Positions 21,064 through 64,000 of a stretch of 64,000 nucleotides of DNA are shown here, piece by piece. Each line of letters opens with the position of its first letter. The stretch's first letter is position 1. Source of the stretch: a virus; the IMG/VR virus record IMGVR_UViG_3300044797_000308, positions 5,850-69,849 of that record, one strand, 5' to 3'. Both the position numbers and the translations under genes were made by a program. The notes under the pieces are model-generated. The model made no database searches and had not been told where the DNA came from. It was given only the letters and a program-made list of their open reading frames with translations.

Positions 21064-21867
21064 ATGGCTCTAAAACTTTTGCAACCAGGCATTCAGCCTC
21101 TCGGTCAATTCGACGGTCTTGACATCGATGTTCTCACCCTCAAAGGCGGTGAAGTTGTTTCTTTCGGCGCTGTAGTAACTTCTGGTCAGCCAGGTGTCAC
21201 CACCTCCGGTCTTGATCACGCTGCTTACGATGTCTTCGATGGTTACGTCAATGTACTTGGTACTTTCTATCGTCCAGCTGTTACCAGACTTTGGAACGCT
21301 ACTCTTTCTACTCTTTCTTCTACTGGCACCACTCGTCCACTAATGCTTTCTGATGAAGGTATCCTTGGATACGGCACCCTCTTCGGAGCTGTCGTCGGTG
21401 GAACTGTCGGTCAGCAAGTCAACGGTCCAACCACCTTTACCGGTGCGGTTCTCGGACCTCACACTGCTACCGGCTCTGGCAAGTGCACTTGCTGGGATAA
21501 GCCAGGTCTCTATGCCGTCTCCCTAGACGCTGTGGATACCACTGTTGCTACTGGTTTGGTTCCAACCAACACCACTAACGGCTTGACTGTTGGATCTCCA
21601 TTGAGCTTTACCGCAGCTACCGCTGTTGGTAACGGTACTGGTGGTCTTTTGACCCCAAACCTTACTGGTAACACCAATGTTATTGGCGGTACTGGTGGTT
21701 CTGGCCCAACTGTTGGTCACTTTGTTGAGTTCAACACCAACCAATCCTTGGTAACTACACCTAACTATTTGGTCGCCGCACTTAATAGCCCAAGTGGAAA
21801 CGTCTCTTCTGTTGGCCCACGTGCCTTCCAGTTTGCGACTATCTACTTTGCTCCTCCAACCACCTAA
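21064..21867 (+). CDS. Putative major capsid decoration protein
   Basis: Strongly biased codon usage like the capsid gene, RBS AAGGAA, located just upstream of the capsid gene, Thr/Gly beta-rich, TGSGKCTCW motif. Confidence 0.65.
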   Translation: MALKLLQPGIQPLGQFDGLDIDVLTLKGGEVVSFGAVVTSGQPGVTTSGLDHAAYDVFDGYVNVLGTFYRPAVTRLWNATLSTLSSTGTTRPLMLSDEGILGYGTLFGAVVGGTVGQQVNGPTTFTGAVLGPHTATGSGKCTCWDKPGLYAVSLDAVDTTVATGLVPTNTTNGLTVGSPLSFTAATAVGNGTGGLLTPNLTGNTNVIGGTGGSGPTVGHFVEFNTNQSLVTTPNYLVAALNSPSGNVSSVGPRAFQFATIYFAPPTT

Positions 21868-21897
21868 TAACTAAATAGTTTTAGATAGTATACGAAT

Positions 21898-21930
21898 AAT
21901 GACTAAATCAGAAATGGTTTGGTCATTTTT
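21898..21930 (+). terminator. Rho-independent terminator
   Basis: AATGACTAAATCA-GAAA-TGGTTTGGTCATT stem (with G-U pairs) and T run. Confidence 0.75.
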
Positions 21931-21985
21931 CATTGGTGCTATATCAATATTTTGGAATATTATAAATTGAATTAGGGAGGGAAAT

Positions 21986-22921
21986 ATGGCATCAGATATC
22001 AACGGAACAGTCGAGGGAATTCAAGGTAATGCAGTAGAGGCTGGAACTCTTGGTTCCACCGAAGACGGTTATGTGCTAACTTGGGTAAATGCTAATAGCG
22101 AATGGCAACCATTACCAGTCACAGTTCCAACATCCGGTTTGACAACTGATTATTTCACTTCCAGCGGCACTTGGACTTGCCCCGCTGGCATTACTAATGT
22201 ATTGGTAATCGGTGCTGGGGGAGGCGGTGGTGGTGCTGGAGGTGGGAGTCAAGCTAATGGTACTGGCGCTGGAGGTGGCGGAGGTGGATCACTTCAACAA
22301 ACATCATATATGTTGGTTACTCCGGGAAACGAATACACTATAACTATTGGTGCTGGTGGTTCGGGTGGATCTGGTGGTAGTCATTTTGGAAATAGTGGAG
22401 ATGATGGTACTGCAACTACTATTGTTTATAGTTCGACAACTTTATTTTATGCTCTTGGCGGTGGTGGGGCTGGTGGCAATGCAGATGGGGGCGAAAGCAT
22501 AATATTTGTTTGTGGTACTTCTTATGCCAATAATCAATCGCAAAATAATGGATGGGTTGGGTATTATAGCGGTTCTGTAGTAACCTTACCATCTATGCCA
22601 GGATTTGGTGGAAATGGTATAGAATCAAATGGAACTGGATCACAGTCTGGAATGCAAAATTATGTGGGTGGATTTTCTGGTGGCTCTGCTGGCGCTAATG
22701 CTACGGGAGTGAGTGCTGGTGGAGGGGGCGGGGGTGGTGCTGGGCCACAAGGAGCTGGTGGAAATGGTGGTAACGGTTCCACAGGTGGTGCTGGTAGTGC
22801 CGGCTCAAATGGCGGAAGCAATACTGCTGCTGGTGGTGGTGGAGGAGGATCTGGTAATGATAACGGCAATGGTGGAGCTGGTGGTAACGGTGGTTCAGGC
22901 TATCTTTACATTATCTACTAA
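21986..22921 (+). CDS. Glycine-rich domain virion fibre-like protein
   Basis: FTSSGTWTCPAGITNVLVIGAGGGGGG...GGSGYLYIIY, the typical phage glycine-rich domain; RBS AGGGAGG. Confidence 0.8.
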   Translation: MASDINGTVEGIQGNAVEAGTLGSTEDGYVLTWVNANSEWQPLPVTVPTSGLTTDYFTSSGTWTCPAGITNVLVIGAGGGGGGAGGGSQANGTGAGGGGGGSLQQTSYMLVTPGNEYTITIGAGGSGGSGGSHFGNSGDDGTATTIVYSSTTLFYALGGGGAGGNADGGESIIFVCGTSYANNQSQNNGWVGYYSGSVVTLPSMPGFGGNGIESNGTGSQSGMQNYVGGFSGGSAGANATGVSAGGGGGGGAGPQGAGGNGGNGSTGGAGSAGSNGGSNTAAGGGGGGSGNDNGNGGAGGNGGSGYLYIIY

Positions 22922-29223: not shown

Positions 29224-30543
29224 ATGACAGTCTTACGTACCGCAGCCGATCAGTTAAATGACATAAATGGTTCCGATGATCAAAACTCCAATCTAGATAT
29301 TGCGGACGAACCGCAACAGTTAGGGGCGCCACTCGGACCTATGGGCAGCAACGCGTCCATTATTTCTATGAACGGTTCCGAATTAACTATTGTTGGATTG
29401 AGTGAAATGACGCTCGACTCCATTGGTTGTGTGTTGCAATTATTAGATGCTAATACGCCCGCTAATAACGGAGCCTTTACCATTAGCAATTACATTGCAC
29501 CTGATACCGTGAGTATTCTCAATGGTGGTGGTGGTAGTGCCCCAGATGCTAACAATGGCAATATCTCTTGGATCGAGCGTAATCCATACAGCCTTCGGGA
29601 CGATCTCAATTATGAACGTTCGGATCGTAAAATTATCAAGGGTGTGGATTATGACCAACTGCCGCCCACTTATCAACAGCCTATCGCCATCGGTACGGAT
29701 GTTCCTACTAATTTAGCTAATATTTCCGGTAACACCTTAGATGCCATTGCTTATCTAGGCAATCGTCAAGTGTTTGGTATTGATATTTTGGCGGGACAAT
29801 CTTTTATCACTTTGTTTGGTGCAGGTATGCTCAAGCACACCGATCCCATCAACACTTTAGGTATCCCTTGTTTTGATATGGCTCCTTATGTTGGTGATTT
29901 TAATTCGTGTTTCGTTAAGGTATTAGACGGTTATGTTACGGGTGCCGAAATACAAGTTATTCAGGGACCTCATGCCGGCGAAAGAATTTTCGGAGTCACC
30001 AGTAATGGCTCTTCTGTTTCTCCTAATTCTGTGGAAATATTTTTTTATTCCTGTCCACCTTGGCAAGATATTACAATTGGGTCCTCCCCATATACTTGGG
30101 AAGTGGGGCAACCCAATGCTATCAATTTAATCTATGTTTACAATCAAATAGGTAATAATTTAGATACAAATATTTTTATATTACCCACTCTCACCCCTGC
30201 TTCCGGAACAGGTGGCAGTGGTATTACTTCTTCTGAACATGAAACTTTACGACAACTCATTCATTTTATTGATGAAGGACCGGGCGATGGCTTCTTATCA
30301 GGGGCTTACAAAGTTATTTTACCGCAGTCCTCCCCTTTCCCCACTTCTGTTATTTGGTATGAAGATGATACCATGTCTCAAATAATAATCTCCAAAATGT
30401 TAGTTTGGTCTGGCCCAGTCCCAACAAATATTATATGGCAGATATATAATACCGATGGTGTTACAGTGGCGCATACAGTAAGTGACAGTATCGCGTACAA
30501 TAACATGATATTTGAATCAACGAGAGTAAGGACGATTTCATAA
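29224..30543 (+). CDS. Hypothetical virion structural protein
   Basis: 439 aa beta-rich; ANNGAFTI module also present in the sheath; HETLRQLIHFID segment. Confidence 0.65.
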   Translation: MTVLRTAADQLNDINGSDDQNSNLDIADEPQQLGAPLGPMGSNASIISMNGSELTIVGLSEMTLDSIGCVLQLLDANTPANNGAFTISNYIAPDTVSILNGGGGSAPDANNGNISWIERNPYSLRDDLNYERSDRKIIKGVDYDQLPPTYQQPIAIGTDVPTNLANISGNTLDAIAYLGNRQVFGIDILAGQSFITLFGAGMLKHTDPINTLGIPCFDMAPYVGDFNSCFVKVLDGYVTGAEIQVIQGPHAGERIFGVTSNGSSVSPNSVEIFFYSCPPWQDITIGSSPYTWEVGQPNAINLIYVYNQIGNNLDTNIFILPTLTPASGTGGSGITSSEHETLRQLIHFIDEGPGDGFLSGAYKVILPQSSPFPTSVIWYEDDTMSQIIISKMLVWSGPVPTNIIWQIYNTDGVTVAHTVSDSIAYNNMIFESTRVRTIS

Positions 30544-44303: not shown

Positions 44304-44864
44304 ATGACATACTGCTTTAATTATACTCCTGGCCAACTAGTTACTTTCTATCAGGAAGTTAAGGACGGCTATGATCAGCGCACGGATGACGGATATATCC
44401 CAGTCGTAACCAGAATTATTGTTCCTGGTTTCACTTTGGCTTGCGATTACCCGCGAACCATGACTCGCATAGATGTAGGTCTGTTTTACTTCCAATTTTT
44501 GCTTCCTAATGGGGCTTCCGCAGTGGGAACTTATTTTGTAGATATTATTTATATGAATCCAGATACGGGACTATTGGTCAATGCGTCTCGTCAGATTGTG
44601 GTAACGGCACCTTTCGGTAATTTTGGCTTGACTCCGGGCGGTTTGGGCGGCCCGCCAATTCATCCGCCACCACCTTGCCATTTCCCTCCAGAACCAGATT
44701 GCCATCATGATCACCATGAGCGTCCCGATCCTTACGATCGTCATGAACATCATGATCCGTGTCCGCCCCCTTGTCCCGCGCCATATCCTCATGAACCGCT
44801 GCCTCTTGGTCCCCGTGGTTTCGTTAGAAATCCACATCGTCCTTTCCGAGGCGGTGGAAGATAA
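44304..44864 (+). CDS. Ig-like virion protein with His/Pro/Cys-rich tail
   Basis: ATG behind AGAGGA; N-terminal domain resembles the N-terminus of 45718. Confidence 0.7.
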   Translation: MTYCFNYTPGQLVTFYQEVKDGYDQRTDDGYIPVVTRIIVPGFTLACDYPRTMTRIDVGLFYFQFLLPNGASAVGTYFVDIIYMNPDTGLLVNASRQIVVTAPFGNFGLTPGGLGGPPIHPPPPCHFPPEPDCHHDHHERPDPYDRHEHHDPCPPPCPAPYPHEPLPLGPRGFVRNPHRPFRGGGR

Positions 44865-49945: not shown

Positions 49946-49953
49946 GGTTTGCT

Positions 49954-49967
49954 AATAAAATTGCATT
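49954..49967 (+). promoter_or_regulatory. Putative late promoter AATA-N6-CATT
   Basis: AATAaaattgCATT, 8 nt before ATG 49976. Confidence 0.55.
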
Positions 49968-49975
49968 TCAGCACT

Positions 49976-51955
49976 ATGGTAAAATACGCTAATCCGAGTA
50001 TGTCTGGTCTCGATCGAGTCGCCTCCTTGGGCGATGGCTATAGTATCAATATGAAGTGGTTTCAAGCCTACCCAGAGATTTTCACTAACAAAATCGCTTA
50101 TCATCTCTATTACTCTACTGCCGAGCTGGATGTTTTTAAGGAAGGCGTTAAGTATGTCATTATTGAGGGCGGTTGCCTCAGTGCGGATATTATTGATTTG
50201 ACACCGGGACAAGATTATTGGTTCTCTGTTAGGCCGGTGGAGTATGATCCGGCCGTTATCACCTTTCTTCCTCAGCTGCCTCGCGCCTATCACAGTGTTA
50301 GGTATTATCCTACTAGTATGTTAAGGGAAAACATTAGTGCGACAGATTTAGTTATTCCACTATTATGCACAGAAGGATTTACCGCCCCCTATGGTATTGT
50401 TAAAATTGGTATAGAACTAATTGAGTATTTGGCCATAGATACCGTCAATAATACTTTGATTGTTCCACCAGCTAATAGTTCAGGGGCTCATTTGGAATTA
50501 CAATCCAATGGAAAATATTATTTGCCCGGCCCTAATAATATAGGGCAAGGCAGTTTGGCTTCTTTGACTTTGGTGACTGATAGCGCGGTGGATGAAACTT
50601 GGAGTATCAAGTGCGTAGAGAGTAGGGAAGATGGATACGGCAATCAAGTGCCCGCCCGATTTGAGGCTATTGGTTCTATCTCGGGTAATCCCACCGATCC
50701 TCATGGCAACTATTATATTTGGGAAGCTAACGGACCTATCATCTCTAATGGTATTTTGAGTTTCTCGGTGGTGGAAACATCTCCTATTTTCAGGCCCTTT
50801 ATCGTCGATAGTTCTGACTTTGGCGATTATTTTACTGTCCAAACTATTGGTGCCACTAGCACACCGGGAGGTCGTGGTTTCAATAACACCCCCATCACTG
50901 AGCACACCGTTTCTGGTTTTGATGGGTACCAGTGTTGGAGCCCTATTGTTAGTGAGTTTATTTTTCAAGAAGATTCTGGCTGGGATCAAATCTATGCCTG
51001 CCAATCTCGTTTTGAGTATCCGCATTTCCCATTTACTGTGTTAGAAGGATATCATCAGGTAGCTCAGGATTATTTGTCTACCAACGACACCGCTGCGGAC
51101 GCAGCCAATGTTACTTTCCCAGAATACGATTATGCCGGCTATCATAGAACTGACCCTGTTCAACTGCTCAATGGGACTTGTGTGGGTAGCTATATCGGCG
51201 GTCAAATGGGCTGTATTGATGGTTATGGTAATTATAGCATCTATCGTGGTCTTTCCCTAGAAAACCAGAACACCCAGAGGCAAGATGTTCTGTTATCAGT
51301 AACTGGACAGCCTGCTTGTTTGATTAGAAGGGAGCAAACTGGTATCACCTGCTCTTGTTACTTGGCTTCTAGCGAATATCCAGATGATCGTTGTCCCTTC
51401 TGTTATGGCACCAAATTTGTTTTTGGCTATACTCAATATTTCAATCCGCGTATGTCGGATGGTCGTATTAAAATTAGATTGGGCCCTACTGCTGAAAACC
51501 TTAAAATGTATGAGGCAGGTATGGAATCCGAGTTTCCGGTAGACATGTGGACTTTGACCGTACCTACCATTAAGACCAGAGATATTATTGTGACATTTGA
51601 TCAAGATGATAATGAAAGTTTCCGATATGAAGTGGCTAATGTCACCAGAAACAACACTATTCTCGGTTTGGATGGTGGCCAAAAAATGACTACTTTCAGA
51701 ATTAGAAAGACGGACCCAGCCTATCAAATACGTATCTTCCGAGATACCTCCGATTTCCCGCAAACTCTCACCACTAGTCTGGCTTTTGCAGTAGGTTTGC
51801 CGCCTCATAATCACACTATTCAAGTAAACGAAAAAGTTTTGTCGGTTTGTCAAGTCAATCAAACCACGGGTGTAGCACAAGGCCATAATCACCCTATCGT
51901 TGCGGGGGTCGTTATGCCAGTTTTGTCGCATACCCACGCAATAATCTTACCGTAA
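49976..51955 (+). CDS. Putative neck/head-closure protein with FN3-like N-terminus
   Basis: DLTPGQDYWFSVR (FN3-like); CSC...CPFCYGT.F.GY; WTL..P.I..RDII; His-rich C-terminus. Confidence 0.55.
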   Translation: MVKYANPSMSGLDRVASLGDGYSINMKWFQAYPEIFTNKIAYHLYYSTAELDVFKEGVKYVIIEGGCLSADIIDLTPGQDYWFSVRPVEYDPAVITFLPQLPRAYHSVRYYPTSMLRENISATDLVIPLLCTEGFTAPYGIVKIGIELIEYLAIDTVNNTLIVPPANSSGAHLELQSNGKYYLPGPNNIGQGSLASLTLVTDSAVDETWSIKCVESREDGYGNQVPARFEAIGSISGNPTDPHGNYYIWEANGPIISNGILSFSVVETSPIFRPFIVDSSDFGDYFTVQTIGATSTPGGRGFNNTPITEHTVSGFDGYQCWSPIVSEFIFQEDSGWDQIYACQSRFEYPHFPFTVLEGYHQVAQDYLSTNDTAADAANVTFPEYDYAGYHRTDPVQLLNGTCVGSYIGGQMGCIDGYGNYSIYRGLSLENQNTQRQDVLLSVTGQPACLIRREQTGITCSCYLASSEYPDDRCPFCYGTKFVFGYTQYFNPRMSDGRIKIRLGPTAENLKMYEAGMESEFPVDMWTLTVPTIKTRDIIVTFDQDDNESFRYEVANVTRNNTILGLDGGQKMTTFRIRKTDPAYQIRIFRDTSDFPQTLTTSLAFAVGLPPHNHTIQVNEKVLSVCQVNQTTGVAQGHNHPIVAGVVMPVLSHTHAIILP

Positions 51956-54932: not shown

Positions 54933-55403
54933 ATGAGTTTTGAAGTAACTGTTATACAAAGAGAGCAGCAAGTTCTTAATGATATTACTAAACTAGGACT
55001 ATATAAACTCCTATTTTCAGCCAAAGTAGCTTTTTGTTTTGTTATATTACTCATTACTACCTGTTTCATGACTTTTTCTGCTTGGGCAGTCTGTAAACAC
55101 GTTCTTGATAGTACTACTTTTGGAGTTTGTTTTGGTGTGTTTGGCGGAATTATGGCTACTATCGCTGGTGTATACAACATAGTTCATAGTATGAATGATC
55201 GTGCAGCTATACAAGCCGCCGTTGATGCTGGCGCAGCCACTCCCCCTCCAGCCAATGTCACCGTTGTTAATACTACGAATACACTACCTCCACCAGCTCC
55301 ACCGCCTCCTCCAGCCGATCCAGATACTTCGGGAGACGACAGCACCGATAATCTAACAACTCCACCACCTGACGCTAACTTGCCACCCTCAGGAACCTTG
55401 TAA
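54933..55403 (+). CDS. Two-TM membrane protein with Pro-rich tail
   Basis: Two hydrophobic segments, then a Pro-rich tail (LPPPAPPPPPADP). Confidence 0.6.
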   Translation: MSFEVTVIQREQQVLNDITKLGLYKLLFSAKVAFCFVILLITTCFMTFSAWAVCKHVLDSTTFGVCFGVFGGIMATIAGVYNIVHSMNDRAAIQAAVDAGAATPPPANVTVVNTTNTLPPPAPPPPPADPDTSGDDSTDNLTTPPPDANLPPSGTL

Positions 55404-58400
55404 TGAGCAATTACCCATATGATTACGATGATGATGCCTCCTTACCTCCCGTCAATGACAACATTGATCAGATAGGTAGCGAGGCCATCAATGCTGCTCG
55501 AGACGCTATTATCAATATTGAAATGGCTTTGGGCACTAATATTGCTGGAGTAATGCCTAATTTGGCCGATCGTCTTGGAATTTTCATAAATCCAGACGGC
55601 ACCCCTAATGCCTCTATTATTTATAATTTAGGTCTAGTCACTCTCCCAGTCACTAATACTCAAATTGCAGAGGCCGCTGGCATTCCTGAGTCCAAATTGA
55701 CTTTGGATTTCCCAACGCTCAGTTTGTATAACTATATTAGAGACTTATCTAACAATGTTAATACGGCTCTTGGATGGCAGTCCGTTAGCGGCTCTAAGCT
55801 AGAACCACATCTTATTGGTTTGATTTATCGTCATGACTTGGCTCAAATCGATGTAGCGGAAGTTTCTTCTCAATTTCTCAATAACGTGTTTCGTGCCAAT
55901 AGAGATAATACCAACTCCTATACACTAATCAACGATATGAATAACGAACTATTGGCTCATCAATGGGCTGATGGATCACCATTTGGTACGGGTGCAAACA
56001 TTACCACCAATAATGGTTCTGAGTATTCTTCTTATTACGCTCACGTAGCTAGTGGTATTTTCCTCGACACCAGCAGATTTGTGGTTATTCCCGAAACCGC
56101 TACTGACGTTCAGTCTTTTGCTGAGTTTTTTGATAGTTCCAGCATTTTAGCCCTTGGTACCAGAGTGCAAAACTTATATGCCAACGGTATTTCTGTTAAC
56201 TCTGCTTCTTCCAGCCTAACTACTGATGGTTATGGTTCTCCAGTAGTTCCAGTCACCCCAGCTATTGCCTTCCTTAGAGGAGATGGTAATAGTAGTATTC
56301 CAGTAGATGATATTGCTATTGGTGATGACATTATTCAGTTTATGCCAACTGATGACGGGTATTCTTTTGATGAGCAATTTGCTTTGGTGAGACCAGGCGA
56401 CATTGTCAGAGTCAATTATGCTAATGACGGTTATTTCGTGGAAGTCCCTTATGTTATTTCCGAAAAGAAATACATCCAAGGTAGCACTAGCGCTTTTAGC
56501 ACTTTCATCGTTAGAATTTTAGGTAAGAATATTGCTTATGCACCTAATGCCCTTGCTAGAATTGATCGACCACTTTTCAACAATAATAAGTATGGAGTTC
56601 TCTCTACTGCTGGCGTCAATTCACCTAACTATCCAAATCCTCCTAGCTTAATTATTGGTACAGCTCGTGGTGCAGAATGCACCGGTATCAATTTTAGCCC
56701 TGACCAGTTCAATGAAACGCACTACCTACTTCACTTAGCTCTCTACCCAGACGGTAATCCACTAGACGGATATACTTTTTTGCCAGGTATTGACGTCACT
56801 GGAAACCAAGGTACTACACCTGGTTCCTATACGTTAGATGGAATTGTAGACTCGACCAATATTGCTTTTAGACAAGCTGGCTACAACTATCGATTTATCG
56901 CCTTCCATTTTCAGGGACAGTTCGGTATAATGATTGCCGACTCTTATAACAACGCTTCTTTCTCTGTGGTTAGTGGCGTAGTCAGTCCTTTGGGAGTTTA
57001 CGATCCAACCAATACGGCCGTCAATTTCCCTAACAACGTTATTGATGTTTTCCCATCTAACGGTAGTACCGCACCTGATCCTCTCGGATTCGGACCCTTC
57101 AATGCTAACTTAGCGAGCCCCCCATTCTTGACCTCGTATGGTTCAGCGCAATCCGCTCTTTTCCCAACCATCTTGTTTGCCCCACTCAAGCGCAATAACT
57201 ACTACGTCAATGGCGCAGAACGTGAAACTTTCAATCTAGATGTTGGGCAAGCGTTGGATATGTACGGTGATGGTTATTGGGTAGCTACTGTCACGGGAGC
57301 TAGTGCAAACGCAGGCCCACCAGGACACATGGTGGTCTCTTACAACATTCCACTCGACTTGTCTGCCTCTAATTTGAAGTCTGGTAAAACTATTGTGGTG
57401 CAACAAGTACCAGGCGGCCCTAACCTTGGCTTAGTCAACTACGGAAGATTTATTATTCAAAGCGTCACCTTCTCGTGTTGTCCACCCGTAGAAACGCAAA
57501 TTGTTGTGTATGACGGTGTCCACGCCCAAGGCAGCACGCCATATCCCGTGCTTGCTGTTGGTTCGCAAGTAGCTATTTATTTCGACAATGACTCTGTGTC
57601 TTTTGATGCAGAAACCGCAACAGACTTTTCTCCGGTGAGTGCCACCTTCAAGAGATTTTTTGAAGTGTATGTGGATTCCAATGGTAATACTTATACGCAC
57701 GAAAGAGGCAGACTTAGTATTTCCTCTCCAACTCTTGTCAACGGTATTCCGCTATACACTAGTGTGCCATCCATAGCTCAATTGGATATCGTTAGTATCT
57801 CTCCTAAGTTGAGAGGCTACCAATTTGCTTCAGTAACTAAAATTACCTTATCATTAGCTAGTTATAATCCAGTCACCGGATTGTTCACTGGAAATCTAGC
57901 CTCTTACAATGGGGTTTCCTTTACCAATGCCGGCCCAGTTACCACTGGACGTATAGGTGAGGTAACCAGATTTTATGATGTTAGCAATATAGACTACATT
58001 GATATTATTTTCGACTTTGGAAATACAGTTCCGGTTCTAACCAATCAATATATTGATTTCCAGCTTTTCCCAAGTTTGCAGTTAGACGAAGAAATTATGG
58101 TACTCGCTTCCTGTCAACAAAGAACGGATACCAATGCAGTCAGTCAATTCACCGATCTTCGACAGTTCGGAAATACCAGCGAGCAACAACTAACCACCTC
58201 AGCTTTGGATTACATCGCTCTACCAGAAAGACTATTGCATTTCAATGGCGTTATTAGAGGATTTGATGCCACCATAGTATCCGGTGGATATGGTAGTGAT
58301 GCCCTCCTCTCCTTAACAGGTGGATTGGCTTTGGTCAATGGAAGTTTTGAGGCAGTCAATAACCAAATCTTCACCATACCACCACTACAAGAATCGTATT

Positions 58401-61315
58401 TATCTGCTATTTATCCCATCAACTATGGTCTCTGTGTGGATGATGGTGGCGATTTAGTAACTATTGTATTGACAGATTATGACGCTGTTAATGGTACGCC
58501 TAACGCACCTAATAGAGTGGTCACTGTTAATAACGTAGTGTCTTCTACTTCATACCAAATAGATTCCGCCACCTTCTCTTACATCTTGAACGATCGAAAA
58601 GATTTAACGCTACTTTATATCGTTACTGCTGTTGTTAGTGGTACCGGAACCGGCGCAACCACTGCTATTACTATCCGTGATGTGAGAAGATTTGCCAAGG
58701 ATTCCGATTCCAGTATTCCGGCTGTTCTTACCAATGATAAGTCGCAGGGTAATTTCCTGACTTTTGCATCCGCTATTACCTGGCTCGAGTTCAACAGTGA
58801 CTTCCAAAACACTTTACAAATCAAAGGCGCTTATACTATTGCCACTGATCCTGGCTTGAACTCCGCAATCTTTATCGAAGGAGCAAGCGCTATTGCCTCT
58901 TTGACTTTTAGCTCCAATGTAGTTATGTCGGAAGTGACATTTGAGAACCTTACCCTAGTTTTCAACGGCATCTTAAACGCTACTAATGTTACTTTCACCA
59001 ATTGTAATATTACTTTCAATGGCGCCACTACTTTTACTGGTGTTGTTATCGATCCATCTACTGTTGCCGTGAATGCCTTGATTGTAACCGGGCAATCTTC
59101 TTTCTTAAACTCTACATTTAATGTCCCCATAACCGTAGCTTTTTCTTTGGAAAGTGACAGTACTTTTGTGGGCAATACCTTTAATTACTCAGCCAATCCA
59201 GTAGGAGACGGCTATTATCGAACGGGTGATTTAGTCAATTCTGGTAAGGCTATGATGTATAGTGATGTATCAAGTACCTTGACTAATTTAACTATCACTG
59301 GCAATACTTTCAATACTGCTTTAACAGATCATTACGCCTTTCTTAGCTTGCAATTGTCTACCCAGTCGGCTATTGTGCAAAACGCCAATATTTCTAACAA
59401 CCAGTTTATTAGTTCAGCCACTTCTGATGATCATAGGGCGGTGATTGCCATCACTTCCACCGTGACTACTCTTGCATTCAACCCTCCTATTTGGCCTTTG
59501 TATCCAACCGTAGTGGATATGCACATCGATAATAATTTATGCAATTACGATCAGATGATTTTGTTTTCCACAGATCGTGTTCCAGGCACCGCCATTAATG
59601 GTGCTATGATAGTTGCTACCAATTGTAGTATTAGCAGAAATACCTGTGGCACTATCGGTTTTATTACGGCAGAAAGTCAGACATCGGATTCTGATGATTC
59701 TAATCCAGCCAATGGTGGTTTCGTTAGAAACAAAAAAGGTCAATTAGTGATCGAAGGTAATGCATGCAAGTTTATTTCTAATATTGATTCCTTGGGAGAC
59801 TATATTGCCTTTTATCCCGTCTTTTCAGGCACGCCCACTGCTTGGGTAACGGCGGGTACCGGCCCATGTGCCATCATCAATAACACGGCCAACTGGATTT
59901 CAGTAGGTGCTTGTGCGGGCGGAACTAATGATGGTATGCTAATTTCTGGCAACAGATTGAGCCCTAATAATTCGTCTTACCTCAGCTTGTATGCGGACAC
60001 GCCACAAAGTGGTTGGACGCCAGATAATGTCGGTATTTTGCTCCGAGGAGAAACTGTTGGTTCTGGCACTCAGTTTGGTGGTTTTACTAATAGTATTATT
60101 ACGGGAAACACTATCTCTCAAAATTACACCCGCATTGTTAGTGGTGGAGGGGGAGCTAATATCTATTACTATGCGGCTGCCATTGCGTGTTACAATAATG
60201 CTCTTATTACTAACAATTCTATTTGTGGCGTCATTAATTCTAGCACTACACCAATAATATTCTTATGGGGAACCAATGCCGGCTCTTTTGCCCCAAGAAT
60301 TAGAGTGTCAGATAATATACTAAGCAGACTTGATATCATATATATGACTACCAATAATATACAGGCCTATGTGGCTGGACCAACAGTTAGTCCTATCAAT
60401 CCCGTTAGTATTGTTAATAATAGTTTTGATACTCAGTGGGTAGATAATGCTAATACTAATAATCAAACCGGCCTCAATATTCCAGATTTTTGGGAATTTA
60501 GAAATAACACTAATCAAACTTTCTATGTTGAATTCCCCTTGGTAGATGACTCGGCTATGTTGAGCGTTGGTATTTCAGGTGGCGTGCCAGGTCCACCAAC
60601 ATCGGGTGTTGGGGTAGTTGGTGGAGTTACGCCACAAGGTGTTATTTTGACTACCGGTACAAATGGAGTTAATTTCGAGAGAGTACTTAATCTTGCGTCT
60701 GGAAGTACTTTTATTCCTAATACTCAGTATACGGTTATCGCCGATTTGCAAAATTCGAGCCCAGAAGTTACTGCGTTTGGCAAGACTTTCAGTTTAGATC
60801 AAAAAATACCTCCAAATTGTAAACTAACTAATGTGGCAATAGGTTTGGGTATGATTACCCCCACTTTGTCAACATCGCCATTTCAACAGGCCTTGAATTG
60901 GAATCAGATTTCGTCCGAAACTGGTAGTACCTGGAACTGTATGACATTGACCTTAATGAAATATTCCCCCACCAATAATAATCAAACTTTCGGTTCTGTC
61001 TTAGATGTTTTTGCCAATGTTTCGTATGATGGTTCTACTAGCCCGCCTTCTGTTGTTGGTGACCCTACACAAGAAGGAAATTTGATTTACAATATCTTTG
61101 TTCCTAACTCTACGGTAGGTGGTAGTCAAACTGCCGAGACTGCTTGGAGAACAAGCACACAATACGCTATTATTCCAATAAGCTCGTTTGATTATCGCAC
61201 TGGTCAAAGTTACAGAATAGCTATCTCAGTAGATGCAAGCTTCTTGAAATCTACTAATGCTGCGGCGTACTTATGTCTATCGCCTGTGGTTGTGACCTGT
61301 GTGTATGGAGCTTAA
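55403..61315 (+). CDS. Large baseplate/fibre protein with beta-helix region
   Basis: 1970 aa; MSNYP...D...N...DAI.NIE..LG N-terminus typical of phage tail proteins; parallel beta-helix repeats (ITGNTF, ISNNQF, ISGNRL). Confidence 0.65.
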   Translation: MSNYPYDYDDDASLPPVNDNIDQIGSEAINAARDAIINIEMALGTNIAGVMPNLADRLGIFINPDGTPNASIIYNLGLVTLPVTNTQIAEAAGIPESKLTLDFPTLSLYNYIRDLSNNVNTALGWQSVSGSKLEPHLIGLIYRHDLAQIDVAEVSSQFLNNVFRANRDNTNSYTLINDMNNELLAHQWADGSPFGTGANITTNNGSEYSSYYAHVASGIFLDTSRFVVIPETATDVQSFAEFFDSSSILALGTRVQNLYANGISVNSASSSLTTDGYGSPVVPVTPAIAFLRGDGNSSIPVDDIAIGDDIIQFMPTDDGYSFDEQFALVRPGDIVRVNYANDGYFVEVPYVISEKKYIQGSTSAFSTFIVRILGKNIAYAPNALARIDRPLFNNNKYGVLSTAGVNSPNYPNPPSLIIGTARGAECTGINFSPDQFNETHYLLHLALYPDGNPLDGYTFLPGIDVTGNQGTTPGSYTLDGIVDSTNIAFRQAGYNYRFIAFHFQGQFGIMIADSYNNASFSVVSGVVSPLGVYDPTNTAVNFPNNVIDVFPSNGSTAPDPLGFGPFNANLASPPFLTSYGSAQSALFPTILFAPLKRNNYYVNGAERETFNLDVGQALDMYGDGYWVATVTGASANAGPPGHMVVSYNIPLDLSASNLKSGKTIVVQQVPGGPNLGLVNYGRFIIQSVTFSCCPPVETQIVVYDGVHAQGSTPYPVLAVGSQVAIYFDNDSVSFDAETATDFSPVSATFKRFFEVYVDSNGNTYTHERGRLSISSPTLVNGIPLYTSVPSIAQLDIVSISPKLRGYQFASVTKITLSLASYNPVTGLFTGNLASYNGVSFTNAGPVTTGRIGEVTRFYDVSNIDYIDIIFDFGNTVPVLTNQYIDFQLFPSLQLDEEIMVLASCQQRTDTNAVSQFTDLRQFGNTSEQQLTTSALDYIALPERLLHFNGVIRGFDATIVSGGYGSDALLSLTGGLALVNGSFEAVNNQIFTIPPLQESYLSAIYPINYGLCVDDGGDLVTIVLTDYDAVNGTPNAPNRVVTVNNVVSSTSYQIDSATFSYILNDRKDLTLLYIVTAVVSGTGTGATTAITIRDVRRFAKDSDSSIPAVLTNDKSQGNFLTFASAITWLEFNSDFQNTLQIKGAYTIATDPGLNSAIFIEGASAIASLTFSSNVVMSEVTFENLTLVFNGILNATNVTFTNCNITFNGATTFTGVVIDPSTVAVNALIVTGQSSFLNSTFNVPITVAFSLESDSTFVGNTFNYSANPVGDGYYRTGDLVNSGKAMMYSDVSSTLTNLTITGNTFNTALTDHYAFLSLQLSTQSAIVQNANISNNQFISSATSDDHRAVIAITSTVTTLAFNPPIWPLYPTVVDMHIDNNLCNYDQMILFSTDRVPGTAINGAMIVATNCSISRNTCGTIGFITAESQTSDSDDSNPANGGFVRNKKGQLVIEGNACKFISNIDSLGDYIAFYPVFSGTPTAWVTAGTGPCAIINNTANWISVGACAGGTNDGMLISGNRLSPNNSSYLSLYADTPQSGWTPDNVGILLRGETVGSGTQFGGFTNSIITGNTISQNYTRIVSGGGGANIYYYAAAIACYNNALITNNSICGVINSSTTPIIFLWGTNAGSFAPRIRVSDNILSRLDIIYMTTNNIQAYVAGPTVSPINPVSIVNNSFDTQWVDNANTNNQTGLNIPDFWEFRNNTNQTFYVEFPLVDDSAMLSVGISGGVPGPPTSGVGVVGGVTPQGVILTTGTNGVNFERVLNLASGSTFIPNTQYTVIADLQNSSPEVTAFGKTFSLDQKIPPNCKLTNVAIGLGMITPTLSTSPFQQALNWNQISSETGSTWNCMTLTLMKYSPTNNNQTFGSVLDVFANVSYDGSTSPPSVVGDPTQEGNLIYNIFVPNSTVGGSQTAETAWRTSTQYAIIPISSFDYRTGQSYRIAISVDASFLKSTNAAAYLCLSPVVVTCVYGA

Positions 61316-62142
61316 TGAGTTCTAACAACTTTTTCAAATCGGATCTTTTCGGAATATACAACATCGTTCAAGCTTCGATGATTGTCTATCCCAAAGAAAT
61401 TATCATAGCCACCTTGCGAGATTTTTTTTCGCAGGATAGCTATTATCATTTTTCCAAAGACCAATGGGGTTTTCCTAATACCACAGACCATACTGATTTG
61501 CCACCAGGAGCGGATTTGCCCTATGGACCAGGTTCCCACCCACAGCTCAATCCTAATCCAGTATTACCCACTCGTCTTTTCATCGGTGAAAATTATAGAT
61601 ATGACAGCATTTTCTATCCTGCTATTCTGGTGAAAAGCGGTGGAACACGTTATGTCCCCATCTCTATCAATCGCAATCAAGGCGAAATTAAATATGATAA
61701 AAAAATATACACCGATGGTTACGGCAATGAAACCATTGTACGCACTCCGGTTTCTTTTCTAACAGCTGGGGCTTGGGAGGGCTCTATTATGGTAGATATA
61801 ATGACCAGAAGTTTGCGAGCCCGTGATGATTTGGTAGAATTGGTGGGTATGTGCTTTACCGAAGTTCATTTTGAGACTTTACATCAAATAGGAATAATTG
61901 TCAAGCCTATCTCGATTAGCGGACCTTCCGAGACAGACGATCGAAATGATAAGTTGTTTAGGCAAACTCTCACATTAGATATAAGAACGGAATGGAAAAG
62001 AGAAATTCCTATTGGTAATACCATCGATGCCATTCTTTTCACAGCTAGTTTCGCAGATTTGTCCAAACCAGATAGCCCAGTAGCCGCGAACCTAACTATT
62101 AATACAGAGGTTAGCATTGCAGATATGCTAATAAAACTGTAA
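61315..62142 (+). CDS. Putative tail completion/terminator protein
   Basis: YPAILVK...DI.TRS...RD.L.E pattern; immediately upstream of the sheath gene. Confidence 0.55.
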   Translation: MSSNNFFKSDLFGIYNIVQASMIVYPKEIIIATLRDFFSQDSYYHFSKDQWGFPNTTDHTDLPPGADLPYGPGSHPQLNPNPVLPTRLFIGENYRYDSIFYPAILVKSGGTRYVPISINRNQGEIKYDKKIYTDGYGNETIVRTPVSFLTAGAWEGSIMVDIMTRSLRARDDLVELVGMCFTEVHFETLHQIGIIVKPISISGPSETDDRNDKLFRQTLTLDIRTEWKREIPIGNTIDAILFTASFADLSKPDSPVAANLTINTEVSIADMLIKL

Positions 62143-62226
62143 AATACTGGAATAGGACGGGTTCAAAATAGAAAGTTTAAGGCTCAGCAGTTAATAAAAT
62201 ATGCTAATAGGGCCTCCAAGGATAGC

Positions 62227-62240
62227 AATATTACTACATT
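62227..62240 (+). promoter_or_regulatory. Putative late promoter AATA-N6-CATT
   Basis: AATAttactaCATT upstream of the sheath gene. Confidence 0.6.
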
Positions 62241-62280
62241 TTAGTAATGCAATCCACAAATCGAGTGAGAAGGATTTAAC

Positions 62281-64000
62281 ATGGCAAACATACCAGGAGC
62301 TACAAACGCACTTCCAGGCGTATTTACAGACGTCATAACACAGTCTAGTGGTGTTGCGATACCTGGAGGCTCTAGAGTCACGGCTATGATTGGCCAAGGC
62401 ACAACTCAGCAAACCATCATTTCCCAAGCTATCGGTGGCGGTGTAGACGGATTAGATCCAACTTTTACAACCAGTACTGGTGCGGATGGTCGACATTTCA
62501 TCATCAACAACGCTCCTCTAATTCAAAATCGTACTACCGTTTTCAAGAACGGTGTCCCTCTAGTTCTACTGGAGCTCGGCCCTATTACCCCCACTACTAC
62601 TTTTAGTTTCAGTTATGACGCTCAGCTAGATCCAACCACGGGCGATCTTCTTTTGCAAGCTGCCCACATCGAAAATCAGGGTGGTGCATTCTACATCCCA
62701 CTCAACACTAACGTCGGCTTAGGTTCTATCAATAGCTTGCAGCTATTAGACCAAGATGCTCCACCAGAAACCTGGACCATTCGTTGTGTCGGTGTTCAAA
62801 GAAACGCTATGAACCAACCAATCGGTGGCACTGCTCAGTTCGAGGCATTTGGTTCTGTGTCTGGTTCTCCGCTAGATGCTAATGGCAATCCAATCATTTG
62901 GGTGGCTAACGGTCAAGTGGTCAGCAACGGTATCCTCAGCTTCTCTATCACCGAAACTACAGTGTCCTCCGTGGTTGTTTCCCCATTCCGTCAAGGCGAT
63001 GGTTTTACTATTATCGTGCAAAGCGGAGTTTTAGTTCGTGGAGACACCTTAACTTCTACTCAAATTCCACAAGCTAATATTAACGCTCCCACACTTTGTT
63101 TGGGCATTACTGACGTGTTCAATCTCTGTGGCGCAGCCAGCGTTACTAACAACTTGGCTTTGGGTGGTCAGCTCTTTTTTGCTAATAACGCTTCCTCTCT
63201 AATTGCTTTGCAAGCAGCCCCTCCTCTCCCAAGAAGAACCTCTTATGTTTTGGATCCAAGTGTAGATTCTACTTCCAAAAATCCAGACGATTATATTTTC
63301 CCCTTCCCACTAGGAGTTGTGCCAGCTATTGGTGATGATATCCACGTGTTCGTAACCAATCCAGCTACCCAAGTGGAAAGTCAACTTCTACCTAACCAAT
63401 ATCCTTTCTACACCATCAGTACTCCACAAAATCCAATCTTCGGAGCCCCTTCTGAACCTGAGTTTATTTTCAGTCCTCAACAACCACCTGGTGGATATTC
63501 TTACAGCTACAGCGTGGTTAATGGATATGAAGTTACTTTCACCCAATTCGACGGATACATCGCTAGATTACCAGCCTTCCAAACACAGGCCCTTTTCTCC
63601 TCCGCCTCTATTGAATTCGACAATACTTTCGTTGGTCAATTACTACAAACATTCGATCCTAAGAATGCGGCCAACAATGGTATCTTCAACATCACAGCCG
63701 TTTCTAACGGGCAACTATCTATTCAGACTATTACCACTGGTGAACCTGGCGATCCAATTCCATTCGAGAGTACTTCTGGATTCCCAGATTTTACCTCTGA
63801 AAATCCTGTGACTTTCGAGCTCATTTATGTTCCAACTGGACTTCCAGCGACTGGTGGCGATGGTACAGATGGTACTTTGATCGCTTTCTTGAATACTGCT
63901 ACTGCTACCTTAACTAGCAGTCAGGTGGATTTCAGCGATTTTGCAGCCATCACACAAGATTATAGATTACAAATCAATGGTTCTGTGGCTGTCAATCCTA
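62281..64000 (+). CDS. Tail sheath protein (3'-truncated, absent from ORF track)
   Basis: Hand translation is open to the window end: MANIPGATNALPGVFTDVITQSSG...AMIGQG and LALGGQLFFANNA, typical of sheath N-terminal domains; RBS GAAGGA. Confidence 0.8.
   Translation, partial: MANIPGATNALPGVFTDVITQSSGVAIPGGSRVTAMIGQGTTQQTIISQAIGGGVDGLDPTFTTSTGADGRHFIINNAPLIQNRTTVFKNGVPLVLLELGPITPTTTFSFSYDAQLDPTTGDLLLQAAHIENQGGAFYIPLNTNVGLGSINSLQLLDQDAPPETWTIRCVGVQRNAMNQPIGGTAQFEAFGSVSGSPLDANGNPIIWVANGQVVSNGILSFSITETTVSSVVVSPFRQGDGFTIIVQSGVLVRGDTLTSTQIPQANINAPTLCLGITDVFNLCGAASVTNNLALGGQLFFANNASSLIALQAAPPLPRRTSYVLDPSVDSTSKNPDDYIFPFPLGVVPAIGDDIHVFVTNPATQVESQLLPNQYPFYTISTPQNPIFGAPSEPEFIFSPQQPPGGYSYSYSVVNGYEVTFTQFDGYIARLPAFQTQALFSSASIEFDNTFVGQLLQTFDPKNAANNGIFNITAVSNGQLSIQTITTGEPGDPIPFESTSGFPDFTSENPVTFELIYVPTGLPATGGDGTDGTLIAFLNTATATLTSSQVDFSDFAAITQDYRLQINGSVAVNP

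What the first reader, a model, noticed from the sequence alone, without database searches (positions are those of the whole stretch)
21238..63558. Asp-Gly-Tyr (DGY) recurs 21 times, only in predicted virion-exterior proteins: candidate modification or docking sequon
Seen: in-frame DGY codons start at 21238, 22064, 29926, 30615, 32556, 33030, 35345, 44364, 44388, 50033, 50630, 50921, 51218, 56225, 56354, 56426, 56765, 57269, 59207, 61714 and 63550. These fall in 10 mostly unrelated proteins (decoration, fibres, neck, baseplate, tail completion, sheath). I found none in the portal, protease, capsid, K-x-A-rich internal proteins, enzymes or endonucleases. By-eye controls: DGF about 4, EGY about 2. 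Codons vary (GAT/GAC, all four GGN, TAT/TAC), so this is not a DNA motif. Paralogs show gain or loss at equivalent turns: ITDGYYGPV vs ISDGTNGPV vs ITDGTHGPA; YSSDGYEL vs YSSDGTEL; INDGYGQIDLW vs ASPGVGQIDLW. Established: some phage virions are glycosylated, and Tyr O-glycosylation occurs on bacterial S-layers. Inference: DGY is a signal recognised by a phage or host enzyme or binding protein that coats the particle (Tyr glycosylation, phosphorylation or cross-linking). Alternatives are a metal-binding turn or simple beta-turn preference.
Basis: partly seen in the sequence, partly recalled or inferred. Interest (0 to 1): 0.85.

Follow-up and report, generated by a model that had tools for sequence, protein, structure and literature searches.

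The report
Asp-Gly-Tyr motif on megaphage tail proteins
The three-residue motif Asp-Gly-Tyr is strongly over-represented, conserved and repeatedly re-created in the fibre, baseplate and decoration-type proteins of a clade of giant phages related to Bacillus phage G, which suggests that another molecule reads it, possibly a sugar-adding enzyme, although no modification has been shown.

Summary
All 21 in-frame DGY sites exist, in 10 of 64 ORFs. DGY is the most over-represented of all tripeptides in the window: 21 observed against 4.3 expected, P 7e-9. The window is part of a 70-kb fragment of a megaphage related to Bacillus phage G. In a complete 480-kb relative, DGY is again the top tripeptide (80 vs 30.1), and 75 of 79 copies lie in beta-rich proteins. 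Eight phages outside the clade give only 1.3x pooled, and phage G gives 1.9x. NGY, EGY, DGF, DGW and all permutations are not enriched. Paralogy explains few sites. Sites are conserved islands between variable flanks, and new DGYs arise at more alignment columns than any other tripeptide in two of four virion-protein families tested. Modelled sites lie in loops. A cassette of GT4, GT2 and dTDP-glucose 4,6-dehydratase genes follows the DGY-rich fibre genes. No kinase was found. The sequon reading is therefore plausible but unproven, and a lineage-specific structural turn remains a serious rival.

The parts
21019..21867 (+). 282-aa Gly-rich protein just upstream of the major head gene; DGY at 21238 (residue 74)
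   Evidence: In 63 distinct homologs from related contigs this column is DGY in 62, and five further columns carry sporadic DGY. No PHROG or Pfam hit.
21986..22921 (+). 311-aa glycine-rich fibre-like protein; DGY at 22064 (residue 27), within a DGYVLTW hairpin-like motif
   Evidence: Pfam Gly_rich_2 3.7e-10; PHROG 863 tail fibre assembly 1.4e-14. Of the 37 of 120 homologs that carry the N-terminal motif, 32 have Y after DG; the others have Q or D.
29224..30543 (+). 439-aa protein of the post-capsid fibre block; DGY at 29926 (residue 235)
   Evidence: The family of 15 homologs carries 55 DGY at 20 alignment columns (about 15 distinct places), rank 1 of 2145 tripeptides for sporadic columns.
30543..33416 (+). 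957-aa fibre-like protein; DGY at 30615, 32556, 33030 (residues 25, 672, 830)
Evidence: Only a short stretch aligns to relative G001.
35306..37687 (+). 793-aa Gly-rich fibre-like protein; DGY at 35345 (residue 14)
   Evidence: Its paralog 33498-35201 has DGT at the same N-terminal place.
44172..44864 (+). 230-aa protein; tandem DGY at 44364 and 44388 (residues 65, 73)
   Evidence: In five relatives the loop keeps one or two DGY at shifting positions.
49949..51955 (+). 668-aa protein with three FN3-like domains and C-terminal HxH repeats; DGY at 50033, 50630, 50921, 51218 (residues 29, 228, 325, 424)
   Evidence: Alignment A1 of 58 homologs: DGY in 53, 8, 49 and 36 of 58 at these places. AF2 model pLDDT 74.7; sites 29, 228 and 325 lie in loops of well-modelled domains. 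Foldseek finds FN3 arrays and lambda gpJ at E about 5e-4.
51044..51052 (+). EGY in the window at a column that is DGY in 55 of 58 homologs: a near-miss copy of a fifth family site
   Evidence: reference position 366.
55403..61315 (+). 1970-aa giant structural-module protein; DGY at 56225, 56354, 56426, 56765, 57269, 59207 (residues 275, 318, 342, 455, 623, 1269)
   Evidence: 120 homologs: 683 DGY vs 115.5 expected, median 6 per protein (range 2-11), 36 alignment columns of which 4 are conserved. D275-G-Y is invariant in 51 of 51 sequences. AF2 of residues 241-700: sites 318, 342, 455 and 623 lie in turns or at strand/helix starts. No fold match.
61273..62142 (+). 289-aa protein; DGY at 61714 (residue 148)
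   Evidence: DGY in 4 of 5 relatives, DEF in the fifth.
62281..63999 (+). 573-aa open-ended ORF (ortholog 942 aa in G001); DGY at 63550 (residue 424)
   Evidence: DGY in 5 of 5 relatives with variable flanks.

Best explanation
DGY is a real short motif of a clade of phage-G-related megaphages. It sits in turns and loops of beta-rich fibre, baseplate and decoration-type proteins encoded in the structural gene block. It is kept by purifying selection and is repeatedly created at new positions.

Both the carboxylate (D, not N or E) and the phenol (Y, not F, W or H) are required, the order is fixed, and the enrichment is lineage-specific. From this I infer that the motif is read in trans by a factor these phages (or their hosts) possess.

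The leading concrete candidate is O-glycosylation of the Tyr in the cytoplasm during assembly. The candidate enzymes are the conserved phage cassette (GT4, an unknown 330-aa protein, dTDP-glucose 4,6-dehydratase, and GT2 enzymes in some genomes) that lies directly downstream of the DGY-rich fibre genes.

Shown: enrichment, specificity, conservation, recurrent gain, loop location, and presence and synteny of the cassette. Inferred: trans recognition, glycosylation, and Tyr as the acceptor.
For: Enrichment:
- Window 21 vs 4.3 expected, the top tripeptide.
- G001, whole 480 kb: 80 vs 30.1, the top tripeptide. Its beta-like stratum: 75 vs 16.1, P 1e-26.
- Structural regions of G002-G005: 16/5.5, 22/6.8, 19/4.7, 19/5.5.
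- G005 beta-like stratum: 32 vs 10.0.

Lineage specificity:
- Phage G 1.9x, T4 2.1x, SPO1 1.4x, phiKZ 1.0x.
- Eight phages outside the clade, pooled: 43 vs 32.0.

Chemical specificity:
- NGY, EGY, DGF, DGW, DGH, DAY, DSY and all five permutations are at or below expectation.
- In 120 homologs of the 1970-aa protein: DGY 683, against DGF 18, EGY 1, DGW 1.

Independence of sites:
- About 1 of 21 (window) and about 6 of 80 (G001) sites align in register with another site.

Selection:
- DGY is identical in 0.73 of orthologs (n=11). The controls are DG[^Y] 0.40 (n=48, P 0.011), [^D]GY 0.27 (n=20, P 0.001) and all tripeptides 0.22.
- Cores are 0.9-1.0 identical next to flanks at 0.3-0.5.
- DGY ranks first for both conserved and sporadic columns in the 668-aa family (4 and 13 columns, of 4192 tripeptides).
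- DGY ranks first for sporadic columns in the 29224 family (20 columns in 15 sequences).
- Control families carry 0-1 DGY. These are the head protein, four head-region proteins without a family match, the tRNA nucleotidyltransferase and two others.

Location:
- 7 of 7 sites in model blocks with pLDDT of 75 or more lie in coil or at element boundaries.

Candidate enzymes:
- G001 327544-333693 encodes GT4, GT2, GT2 and a dTDP-glucose 4,6-dehydratase-like protein (355 bits), directly after a 1341-aa protein with 7 DGY.
- Orthologs of the GT4, the 330-aa protein and the dehydratase are present in G005.
- Glycos_transf_1 is over its cut-off in 5 of 5 clade genomes and in 0 of 5 outgroups, including phage G.
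- In G003 and G004, DGY codon clusters end just upstream of the GT genes.

Precedent: glycans on capsid and tail-tube subunits of mycobacteriophages, as cited in passages of PMC12619734.
Against: - There is no direct evidence of any modification.
- No known sequon or enzyme specificity for D-G-Y was found. Searches for 'DGY motif' + phage and DGY + 'tail fiber' gave 0 papers, and 'Asp-Gly-Tyr' gave 18 papers (15 listed, none of them on phage).
- The glycosyltransferases could serve DNA or host-envelope modification instead. A DNA glycosylase gene sits inside the cassette.
- The contrast in GT presence between clade and outgroups is a single evolutionary event.
- GT2 is over its cut-off in only 3 of 5 clade genomes.
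- The major head protein has no DGY in 60 homologs, unlike the known mycobacteriophage case.
- Depletion in non-virion proteins is not robust: G001 4 vs 11.9 (P 0.008), but G005 10 vs 13.7.
- Some sites belong to larger fold motifs (DGYVLTW hairpin, Kelch DGYIYxFGG, FN3 A-B turn). T4 and phage G show about 2x enrichment. Part of the signal is therefore structural.
- Exposure of the Tyr side chain was not measurable.
Confidence: 0.35

Rival explanations
1. DGY is a lineage-specific structural idiom. In this view it is a particularly stable exposed turn: Asp caps or hydrogen-bonds, Gly takes the left-handed conformation, and Tyr anchors the following strand. The structural protein families of this clade have adopted it and keep re-evolving it for virion robustness. 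No reader molecule is involved.
For: - There is baseline enrichment in beta-rich proteins of unrelated phages: T4 8 vs 3.8, phage G 20 vs 10.5, Tunturi_5 10 vs 5.0, and 1.34x pooled.
- Sites sit at turns just before strands or helices.
- Several sites are embedded in recognisable fold motifs. Examples are Kelch blades in G001 98306-99553, the FN3 A-B turn and DGYVLTW.
- +1 is enriched for V/I, as expected at a strand start.
- The strength of enrichment varies continuously, from 7.4x to 3.2x, across the clade.
Against: - A turn idiom should tolerate N for D and F for Y, yet NGY and DGF are at or below expectation.
- The physics is universal, but the enrichment is 3-7x only in this clade.
- DGY is absent from the clade's non-structural proteins that do contain DG turns: G001 mid and helix-like strata have 334 DG and only 4 DGY.
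- Recurrent gain at many variable, gap-rich columns is unusual for a purely structural element.
Confidence: 0.3
2. DGY turns are direct ligand-binding microsites on the particle surface. An Asp carboxylate plus a Tyr ring would contact host cell-wall glycans or a metal ion such as Fe(III). This would give weak multivalent adhesion along fibres and baseplate.
For: - The motif is restricted to fibre, baseplate and decoration-type proteins of the structural block.
- Tandem DGYxDGY pairs are common.
- The 668-aa protein also has C-terminal HxH repeats, a motif known from memory to bind iron in T4 gp37.
- D and Y specificity fits ligand chemistry.
Against: - Three residues in varied folds are unlikely to form a defined site.
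- There is no co-enrichment of other binding-loop compositions or of permutations such as YGD or GDY.
- Receptor-binding surfaces usually vary between relatives, whereas many DGY sites are invariant in 51-58 homologs.
Confidence: 0.15
3. DGY marks tyrosines for phosphorylation or oxidative cross-linking.
For: Only the general point that the phenol is required.
Against: - Pkinase is over its cut-off in 0 of 5 clade genomes, and CotH in 0 of 5.
- No oxidase was searched for.
- Isolated tyrosines spread over monomeric domains are poorly placed for dityrosine links.
Confidence: 0.05
4. The signal is an artefact: chance, amino-acid composition, repeated domains, a DNA-level motif, or selection bias by the first reader.
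For: The window was chosen because DGY looked frequent, so its 7.4x is probably inflated compared with the relatives (3.2-4.7x).
Against: - DGY is the top tripeptide in an independently fetched 480-kb genome.
- The result is replicated in four more genomes.
- Markov expectations condition on DG and GY counts.
- A composition index without G and Y gives the same split.
- There is little paralogy.
- Codons vary, and there are 0 antisense matches.
Confidence: 0.01

Closest known systems
Mycobacteriophage virion glycosylation (Freeman et al. 2023, seen only as cited in passages of PMC12619734; the paper itself was not held)
   Same: Phage-encoded glycosyltransferases lie next to structural genes, and virion proteins are the proposed targets.
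   Different: There the glycans sit at C-termini of capsid and tail-tube subunits. Here the head protein lacks the motif. The putative acceptor is an internal Tyr in a D-G-Y turn spread over 30 or more proteins, and nothing has been shown biochemically.
Bacterial short glycosylation sequons with an upstream acidic residue (Campylobacter D/E-X-N-X-S/T; Bacteroidetes D-S/T-hydrophobic; recalled, not from a call)
   Same: A three-to-five-residue motif with an acidic residue two positions before, or next to, the acceptor. Such motifs are enriched in surface proteins.
   Different: Those systems act outside the cytoplasmic membrane through oligosaccharyltransferases. No Wzy_C-type enzyme was found here. 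Tyr is not their acceptor, and no DGY sequon is described.
Tyrosine O-glycosylation of S-layer proteins in Paenibacillus and Thermoanaerobacter (review PMC2943079, passages read)
   Same: Tyr is a glycan acceptor in Firmicutes surface proteins. The only named host among this phage's kin is a Bacillus-group bacterium (phage G record).
   Different: No site consensus is given in the passages read. Transfer is thought to be co-secretional by an O-oligosaccharyltransferase, which does not fit virions assembled in the cytoplasm.
Two-residue Asp/Asn-Gly beta-turns (type I' and G1-bulge hairpins; recalled textbook knowledge)
   Same: A DG pair at the turn is followed by the first strand residue. Modelled sites lie in turns.
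   Different: The generic preference includes NG and does not single out Tyr. Here NGY and DGF are not enriched, and the effect is lineage-specific.

Membership tests
Protein glycosylation sequon | A short fixed motif containing the acceptor residue, enriched in target proteins | tested here: met
   DGY is 3-7x enriched in beta-rich proteins of the structural gene blocks, with strict residue and order specificity.
Protein glycosylation sequon | A cognate glycosyltransferase encoded by the phage or its host | tested here: inconclusive
   A GT4/GT2/dTDP-glucose dehydratase cassette follows the DGY-rich genes. Its substrate is unknown.
Protein glycosylation sequon | Motif avoided in non-target proteins exposed to the enzyme | tested here: inconclusive
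   G001 rest-stratum 4 vs 11.9 (P 0.008); G005 10 vs 13.7 (not significant); phage G 11 vs 16.4.
Protein glycosylation sequon | Glycan detected on the acceptor residue | not testable with these tools
   This needs virion mass spectrometry.
Mycobacteriophage-type virion glycosylation | Glycosyltransferase genes adjacent to structural genes | tested here: met
   G001 327544-332500 lies directly after the fibre gene 322721-326746. The arrangement is similar in G003, G004 and G005.
Mycobacteriophage-type virion glycosylation | Targets are the C-termini of the major capsid and tail-tube subunits | tested here: not met
   The major head protein family has 0 DGY in 60 sequences. DGY sites are internal.
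Generic D/N-G beta-turn preference | Asn at least as good as Asp; effect present in beta-rich proteins of any phage | tested here: not met
   NGY ratios are 0.29 and 0.71. The pooled outgroup ratio is 1.34.
DxDxDG calcium-binding loop | Asp/Asn at positions -2 and -4 from the Asp of DG | tested here: not met
   0 of 21 window sites and 0 of 80 G001 sites.
Repeated domain or paralog motif | Sites align in register with each other within wider sequence similarity | tested here: not met
   About 1 of 21 and about 6 of 80 sites do so. The main exception is the Kelch repeats of G001 98306-99553.
Tyrosine phosphorylation site | A protein kinase encoded by the phage | tested here: not met
   Pkinase 0 of 5 and CotH 0 of 5 over their cut-offs. 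Host kinases were not testable.

The most novel reading that the evidence does not exclude
DGY is the sequon of a phage-encoded, cytoplasmic, general tyrosine O-glycosylation system. The system would decorate on the order of a hundred sites on thirty or more tail, baseplate, fibre and decoration proteins of megaphage virions. The GT4 would initiate and the GT2 enzymes would extend a glycan containing a 6-deoxyhexose.
Probability: 0.22. Interest if true: 0.9.

Novelty: new variant of a known kind. Interest (0 to 1): 0.66.

Why it matters
If a modifying enzyme or binding partner reads DGY, this would be the first defined tyrosine-centred sequon. It would also be the first proteome-wide modification code on a phage particle. 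It would predict which proteins of hundreds of uncultured megaphages are on the virion surface. It would also give a compact tag for engineering. Even if the motif is purely structural, it is of interest to protein design. A three-residue turn that one viral lineage re-invents dozens of times, while its one-atom-different neighbours (NGY, DGF) are avoided, is an unusually clean natural experiment in local sequence-structure selection.

Tried and rejected
- **Chance or multiple testing:** rejected. DGY ranks first of all tripeptides in the window and in G001.
- **DNA motif:** rejected. Codons vary, the pattern occurs only on the coding strand and mostly in frame, and there are 0 antisense matches. 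The crude DNA pattern against the reversed-pattern control across genomes was too noisy to use.
- **Paralogy:** rejected for most sites.
- **Extended consensus around DGY:** none beyond weak V/I at +1 and V at -4.
- **Y/S/G/D 'binding-loop' composition:** rejected, because permutations are not enriched.
- **DxDxDG loops:** rejected.
- **Phage G as a guide to function:** too distant. Only about ten window proteins hit its ORFs, among them the portal, the head protein, a protease domain and homing endonucleases. Of the ten DGY proteins only 61273-62142 hit, and weakly.
- **The 668-aa protein:** no tblastn hit in cultured phages.
- **Megablast of the head region against cultured phages:** no match.
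- **Fold of the 1970-aa fragment:** no PDB match at E <= 0.001.
- **The 330-aa cassette protein:** no Pfam family, no meaningful NCBIfam or PDB match, and no named cluster in the ESM Atlas.
- **Solvent exposure:** not computable, because model coordinates are not delivered to the script box.
- **Depletion in non-virion proteins:** not reproducible.
- **Literature:** no DGY phage motif found. 'Asp-Gly-Tyr' gave 18 papers; the 15 listed were not on phage. The S-layer review passages give no Tyr-site consensus. The phage G multi-omics paper passages mention no virion modification.
- **Supplementary files:** not consulted. The supplementary tables of PMC12484599 may list phage G virion proteins that bear on which orthologs are structural.

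Full report
**What the window is.** The window is bases 5850-69849 of a single 69,849-base viral contig. IMG/VR rates the contig 16% complete.

PHROG scans identify these genes:
- a portal (2-1561)
- a lytic-transglycosylase-like protein (2871-3980)
- a 1227-aa protein with a prohead-protease domain (7685-11368)
- the major head protein (24222-25235, phrog_2522, 2e-78)
- a tRNA nucleotidyltransferase (25876-27111, minus strand)
- several HNH/GIY-YIG homing endonucleases

The head protein's best match among cultured phages is Bacillus phage G, at 53.7% identity. In IMG/VR, 317 contigs encode a head-protein relative; the 80 best kept are 89-100% identical. They include complete genomes of 430-480 kb, given handles G001-G005. 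The window is therefore part of the structural gene block of an uncultured megaphage related to phage G.

**The observation.**
- All 21 coordinates encode DGY in frame.
- In a greedy longest-ORF gene set (64 ORFs, 20,769 aa) they lie in 10 ORFs. The other 54 have none.
- With DG = 120 and GY = 59, the first-order Markov expectation is 4.31 (P 6.9e-9). DGY is the most over-represented of all tripeptides, ahead of PPP.
- After DG, Tyr is the commonest residue (21, then T 17, S 13). Before GY, Asp accounts for 21 of 59.
- The degenerate DNA pattern occurs 26 times, all on the coding strand: 21 in frame and none antisense.

**Is it peculiar to this window?** No, it is a property of the clade.
- In the whole 480-kb genome G001 (701 ORFs, 151,648 aa), DGY is again the top tripeptide: 80 vs 30.1, P 3.5e-14. 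Of the 80 copies, 62 lie in the 260-400 kb block.
- I stratified proteins of at least 100 aa by a crude composition index, G,T,S,N,V,Y,W,P minus E,K,L,R,A,M,Q. In the beta-like stratum the window has 21 vs 2.9 and G001 has 75 vs 16.1 (P 1e-26). In the other strata the window has 0 and G001 has 4.
- An index without G and Y gives the same split.
- The equivalent 80-kb regions of G002-G005 give 16/5.5, 22/6.8, 19/4.7 and 19/5.5.
- The whole genome G005 gives 32 vs 10.0 in the beta-like stratum.

**Is it generic to beta-rich phage proteins?** Only weakly.

| Genome, beta-like stratum | DGY observed | Expected |
|---|---|---|
| Phage G | 20 | 10.5 |
| T4 | 8 | 3.8 |
| SPO1 | 4 | 2.9 |
| phiKZ | 8 | 8.1 |
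| Myrna (first 100 kb) | 1 | 0.8 |
| LR745208 | 9 | 8.3 |
| Tunturi_5 | 10 | 5.0 |
| Rctr197k | 0 | 1.6 |
| Lu11 (first 200 kb) | 3 | 2.8 |

Pooled without phage G, the eight give 43 vs 32.0, or 1.34x. There is thus a small general preference, and this clade amplifies it to 3-7x. The window's 7.4x is probably somewhat inflated, because the window was picked for this feature.

**Specificity.**
- In the beta-like strata of the window and G001, none of the five permutations of D, G, Y is enriched. Nor are DAY, DSY, DNY, DGF, DGW, DGH, NGY, EGY, SGY, TGY or GGY.
- In 120 homologs of the 1970-aa protein (233,068 aa) there are 683 DGY (115.5 expected). The neighbours are far rarer: DGF 18, NGY 45, EGY 1, DGW 1, DGH 2.
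- So the carboxylate, the glycine and the phenol are each required, in that order.
- No extended consensus surrounds the motif. The only trend is a modest excess of V/I at +1 and of V at -4.
- None of the sites has D/N at both -2 and -4, so they are not DxDxDG calcium loops.

**Independence.** BLASTP of windows of 40 aa either side of each site shows that only about 1 of 21 sites in the window aligns in register with another site. In G001 the figure is about 6 of 80, mainly the Kelch blades of 98306-99553. Tandem pairs such as DGYxDGY are frequent. The motif occurs in different folds:
- FN3-like domains
- Kelch repeats and a Baseplate_J protein in G001
- a Gly_rich_2 fibre
- beta-helix-like repeats

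**Selection.**
- Against G001 alone, 11 of 17 alignable window sites are still DGY, at 62% overall identity.
- Over five relatives, DGY is identical in 0.73 of orthologs (n = 11). The comparisons are DG[^Y] 0.40 (n = 48, Mann-Whitney P 0.011), [^D]GY 0.27 (n = 20, P 0.001) and all tripeptides of the same proteins 0.22 (P 6e-6).
- In deep alignments the cores are 0.9-1.0 identical, while the residues at -1, -2, +1 and +2 are often 0.3-0.5.
- In the 58-sequence family of the 668-aa protein, DGY has the most conserved columns (4) of 4192 tripeptides. It also has the most sporadic columns: 13, or about 10 places after merging neighbours. DGF has 3, NGY 1, EGY 2 and DGT 6.
- The window itself has EGY where 55 of 58 homologs have DGY.
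- In the 29224 family, 15 sequences carry 55 DGY at 20 columns, rank 1 of 2145.
- In the 1970-aa family there are 36 DGY columns in 60 sequences, 4 of them conserved. That is again the most conserved columns of any tripeptide. The sporadic rank is only 269 of 6069, because Ser-rich low-complexity tripeptides dominate.
- The 21019 family has one conserved DGY column (62 of 63 sequences) and five sporadic columns, sporadic rank 109 of 1966.
- Eight families without a DGY in the window protein, run the same way, have 0 or 1 DGY in 13-60 sequences each; a ninth, 28593 (25 sequences), has 9 at 2 columns. The eight are the head protein, 19672, 18644, 16321, 14074, 27211, the tRNA nucleotidyltransferase and 13119.
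- These sequences are related, so raw counts are not independent. The number of distinct columns is the relevant figure.

**Structure.**
- AF2 of the 668-aa protein (58-sequence alignment, pLDDT 74.7) models residues 1-350 well, as beta-sandwich domains. Foldseek matches them to FN3 arrays and, weakly, to lambda gpJ.
- AF2 of residues 241-700 of the 1970-aa protein gives pLDDT 74.9 and no fold match.
- Seven sites lie in 10-residue blocks with pLDDT of at least 75: sites 29, 228 and 325 of the first protein and 318, 342, 455 and 623 of the second. All seven are in DSSP coil or at the boundary just before a strand or helix.
- Two further sites fall in low-confidence stretches.
Exposure is suggested only indirectly, by variable flanks and by the V/I at +1.

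**Candidate reader.**
- In G001 a 1341-aa protein with 7 DGY (322721-326746) is followed in order by these genes:
  - a 233-aa unknown
  - a GT4-type glycosyltransferase
  - a GT2
  - an Fpg-type DNA glycosylase
  - a 330-aa unknown
  - a second GT2
  - a dTDP-glucose 4,6-dehydratase-like enzyme (355 bits, just under the equivalog cut-off)
  - a TubZ-like tubulin
  - a GH25 lysozyme
- G005 has orthologs of the GT4, the 330-aa protein and the dehydratase at 359-364 kb, just after its DGY-rich bins.
- In G003 and G004 the GT genes also follow DGY clusters.
- Glycos_transf_1 is over its cut-off in 5 of 5 clade genomes and in 0 of 5 outgroups. Glycos_transf_2 is over its cut-off in 3 of 5 clade genomes and 1 of 5 outgroups.
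- Phage G has no BLAST homolog of the cassette.
- Pkinase, CotH, GT8 and Wzy_C are over their cut-offs in 0 of 5 clade genomes.
- The window's own contig ends before this region, so I cannot say whether this phage has the cassette.

**Weighing.**
- Against chance, composition, paralogy and generic turn preference, the evidence is strong.
- The choice between a motif read in trans and a lineage-specific structural idiom is open.
- Favouring recognition: the requirement for carboxylate and phenol, the avoidance of one-atom neighbours, the recurrent gain, the restriction to structural-module proteins, the lineage specificity, and the adjacent glycosylation genes.
- Favouring structure: the roughly 2x baseline elsewhere, the embedding of some sites in fold motifs, the absence from the head protein, and the non-reproducible depletion in other proteins.
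- I therefore put trans recognition, with Tyr glycosylation as the concrete form, at about 0.35, the structural idiom at 0.30 and direct ligand binding at 0.15.

**Limits.**
- Gene sets are longest-ORF calls, not curated.
- Relatives share ancestry.
- Functional labels for most DGY proteins are inferred from position and composition.
- No host is known.

Noticed in passing
window 22895-24064 (-), 40030-40773, 46670-47686, 51991-52911, 4606-5352: HNH and GIY-YIG homing endonuclease genes are scattered through the structural block. At least three (4606, 40030, 51991) are paralogs of one G001 gene at 221770. They are absent from the syntenic positions in G001, so they look like recent mobile insertions.
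   Followed up: partly
homologs P0005, P0008, P0067, P0087, P0091, P0096 of window 49949-51955: Some homologs of the 668-aa protein are about 1070 aa long. They carry Hint/intein domains (PF14890, PF13403, PF07591, PF14528), that is, inteins inside a tail or fibre structural gene.
   Followed up: no
window 50483-50854 (residues 179-302 of the 668-aa protein): This FN3-like domain is missing from the orthologs in G001-G005 (526-563 aa). It matches instead a domain of a different protein of about 930 aa in those genomes at 40-43% identity. This points to domain shuffling between structural proteins.
   Followed up: no
window about 51800-51955 (C-terminus of the 668-aa protein): There are three conserved His-x-His repeats (family consensus PPHSHTIV, GHNHPIV, GHTHxIILP) and a Cys-rich stretch with near-invariant cysteines. 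From memory, HxH repeats bind iron in the T4 gp37 fibre tip.
   Followed up: no
window 2-1561 and 54906-55403: PPP is the second most over-represented tripeptide (29 vs 10.7). It is concentrated in the portal ORF (14) and in a 165-aa ORF (6).
   Followed up: no
L090:18306-19553 (G001 98306-99553): A 415-aa Kelch-repeat protein lies outside the main structural block. It carries DGY at the blade turn in 6 places, as DGYIYxFGG.
   Followed up: partly
L102:13719-15077 (G001 333719-335077): A TubZ/PhuZ-like tubulin gene lies next to the glycosyltransferase cassette and a GH25 lysozyme. An Fpg-type DNA glycosylase gene sits inside the cassette.
   Followed up: no
phage G record NC_023719 (loci L115-L139): In phage G the most over-represented tripeptides are PIC (37 vs 4.4) and CPI (37 vs 7.9). 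This suggests a repeated Cys-Pro-Ile-Cys-type motif or a paralog family.
   Followed up: no
window 25876-27111 (-): A tRNA nucleotidyltransferase gene lies on the opposite strand, immediately after the major head gene, inside the structural block. It is conserved there in G001.
   Followed up: no
G005 whole genome (loci L187-L210): The top tripeptide genome-wide in G005 is RSR (52 vs 21.3), not DGY. This is unexplained.
   Followed up: no
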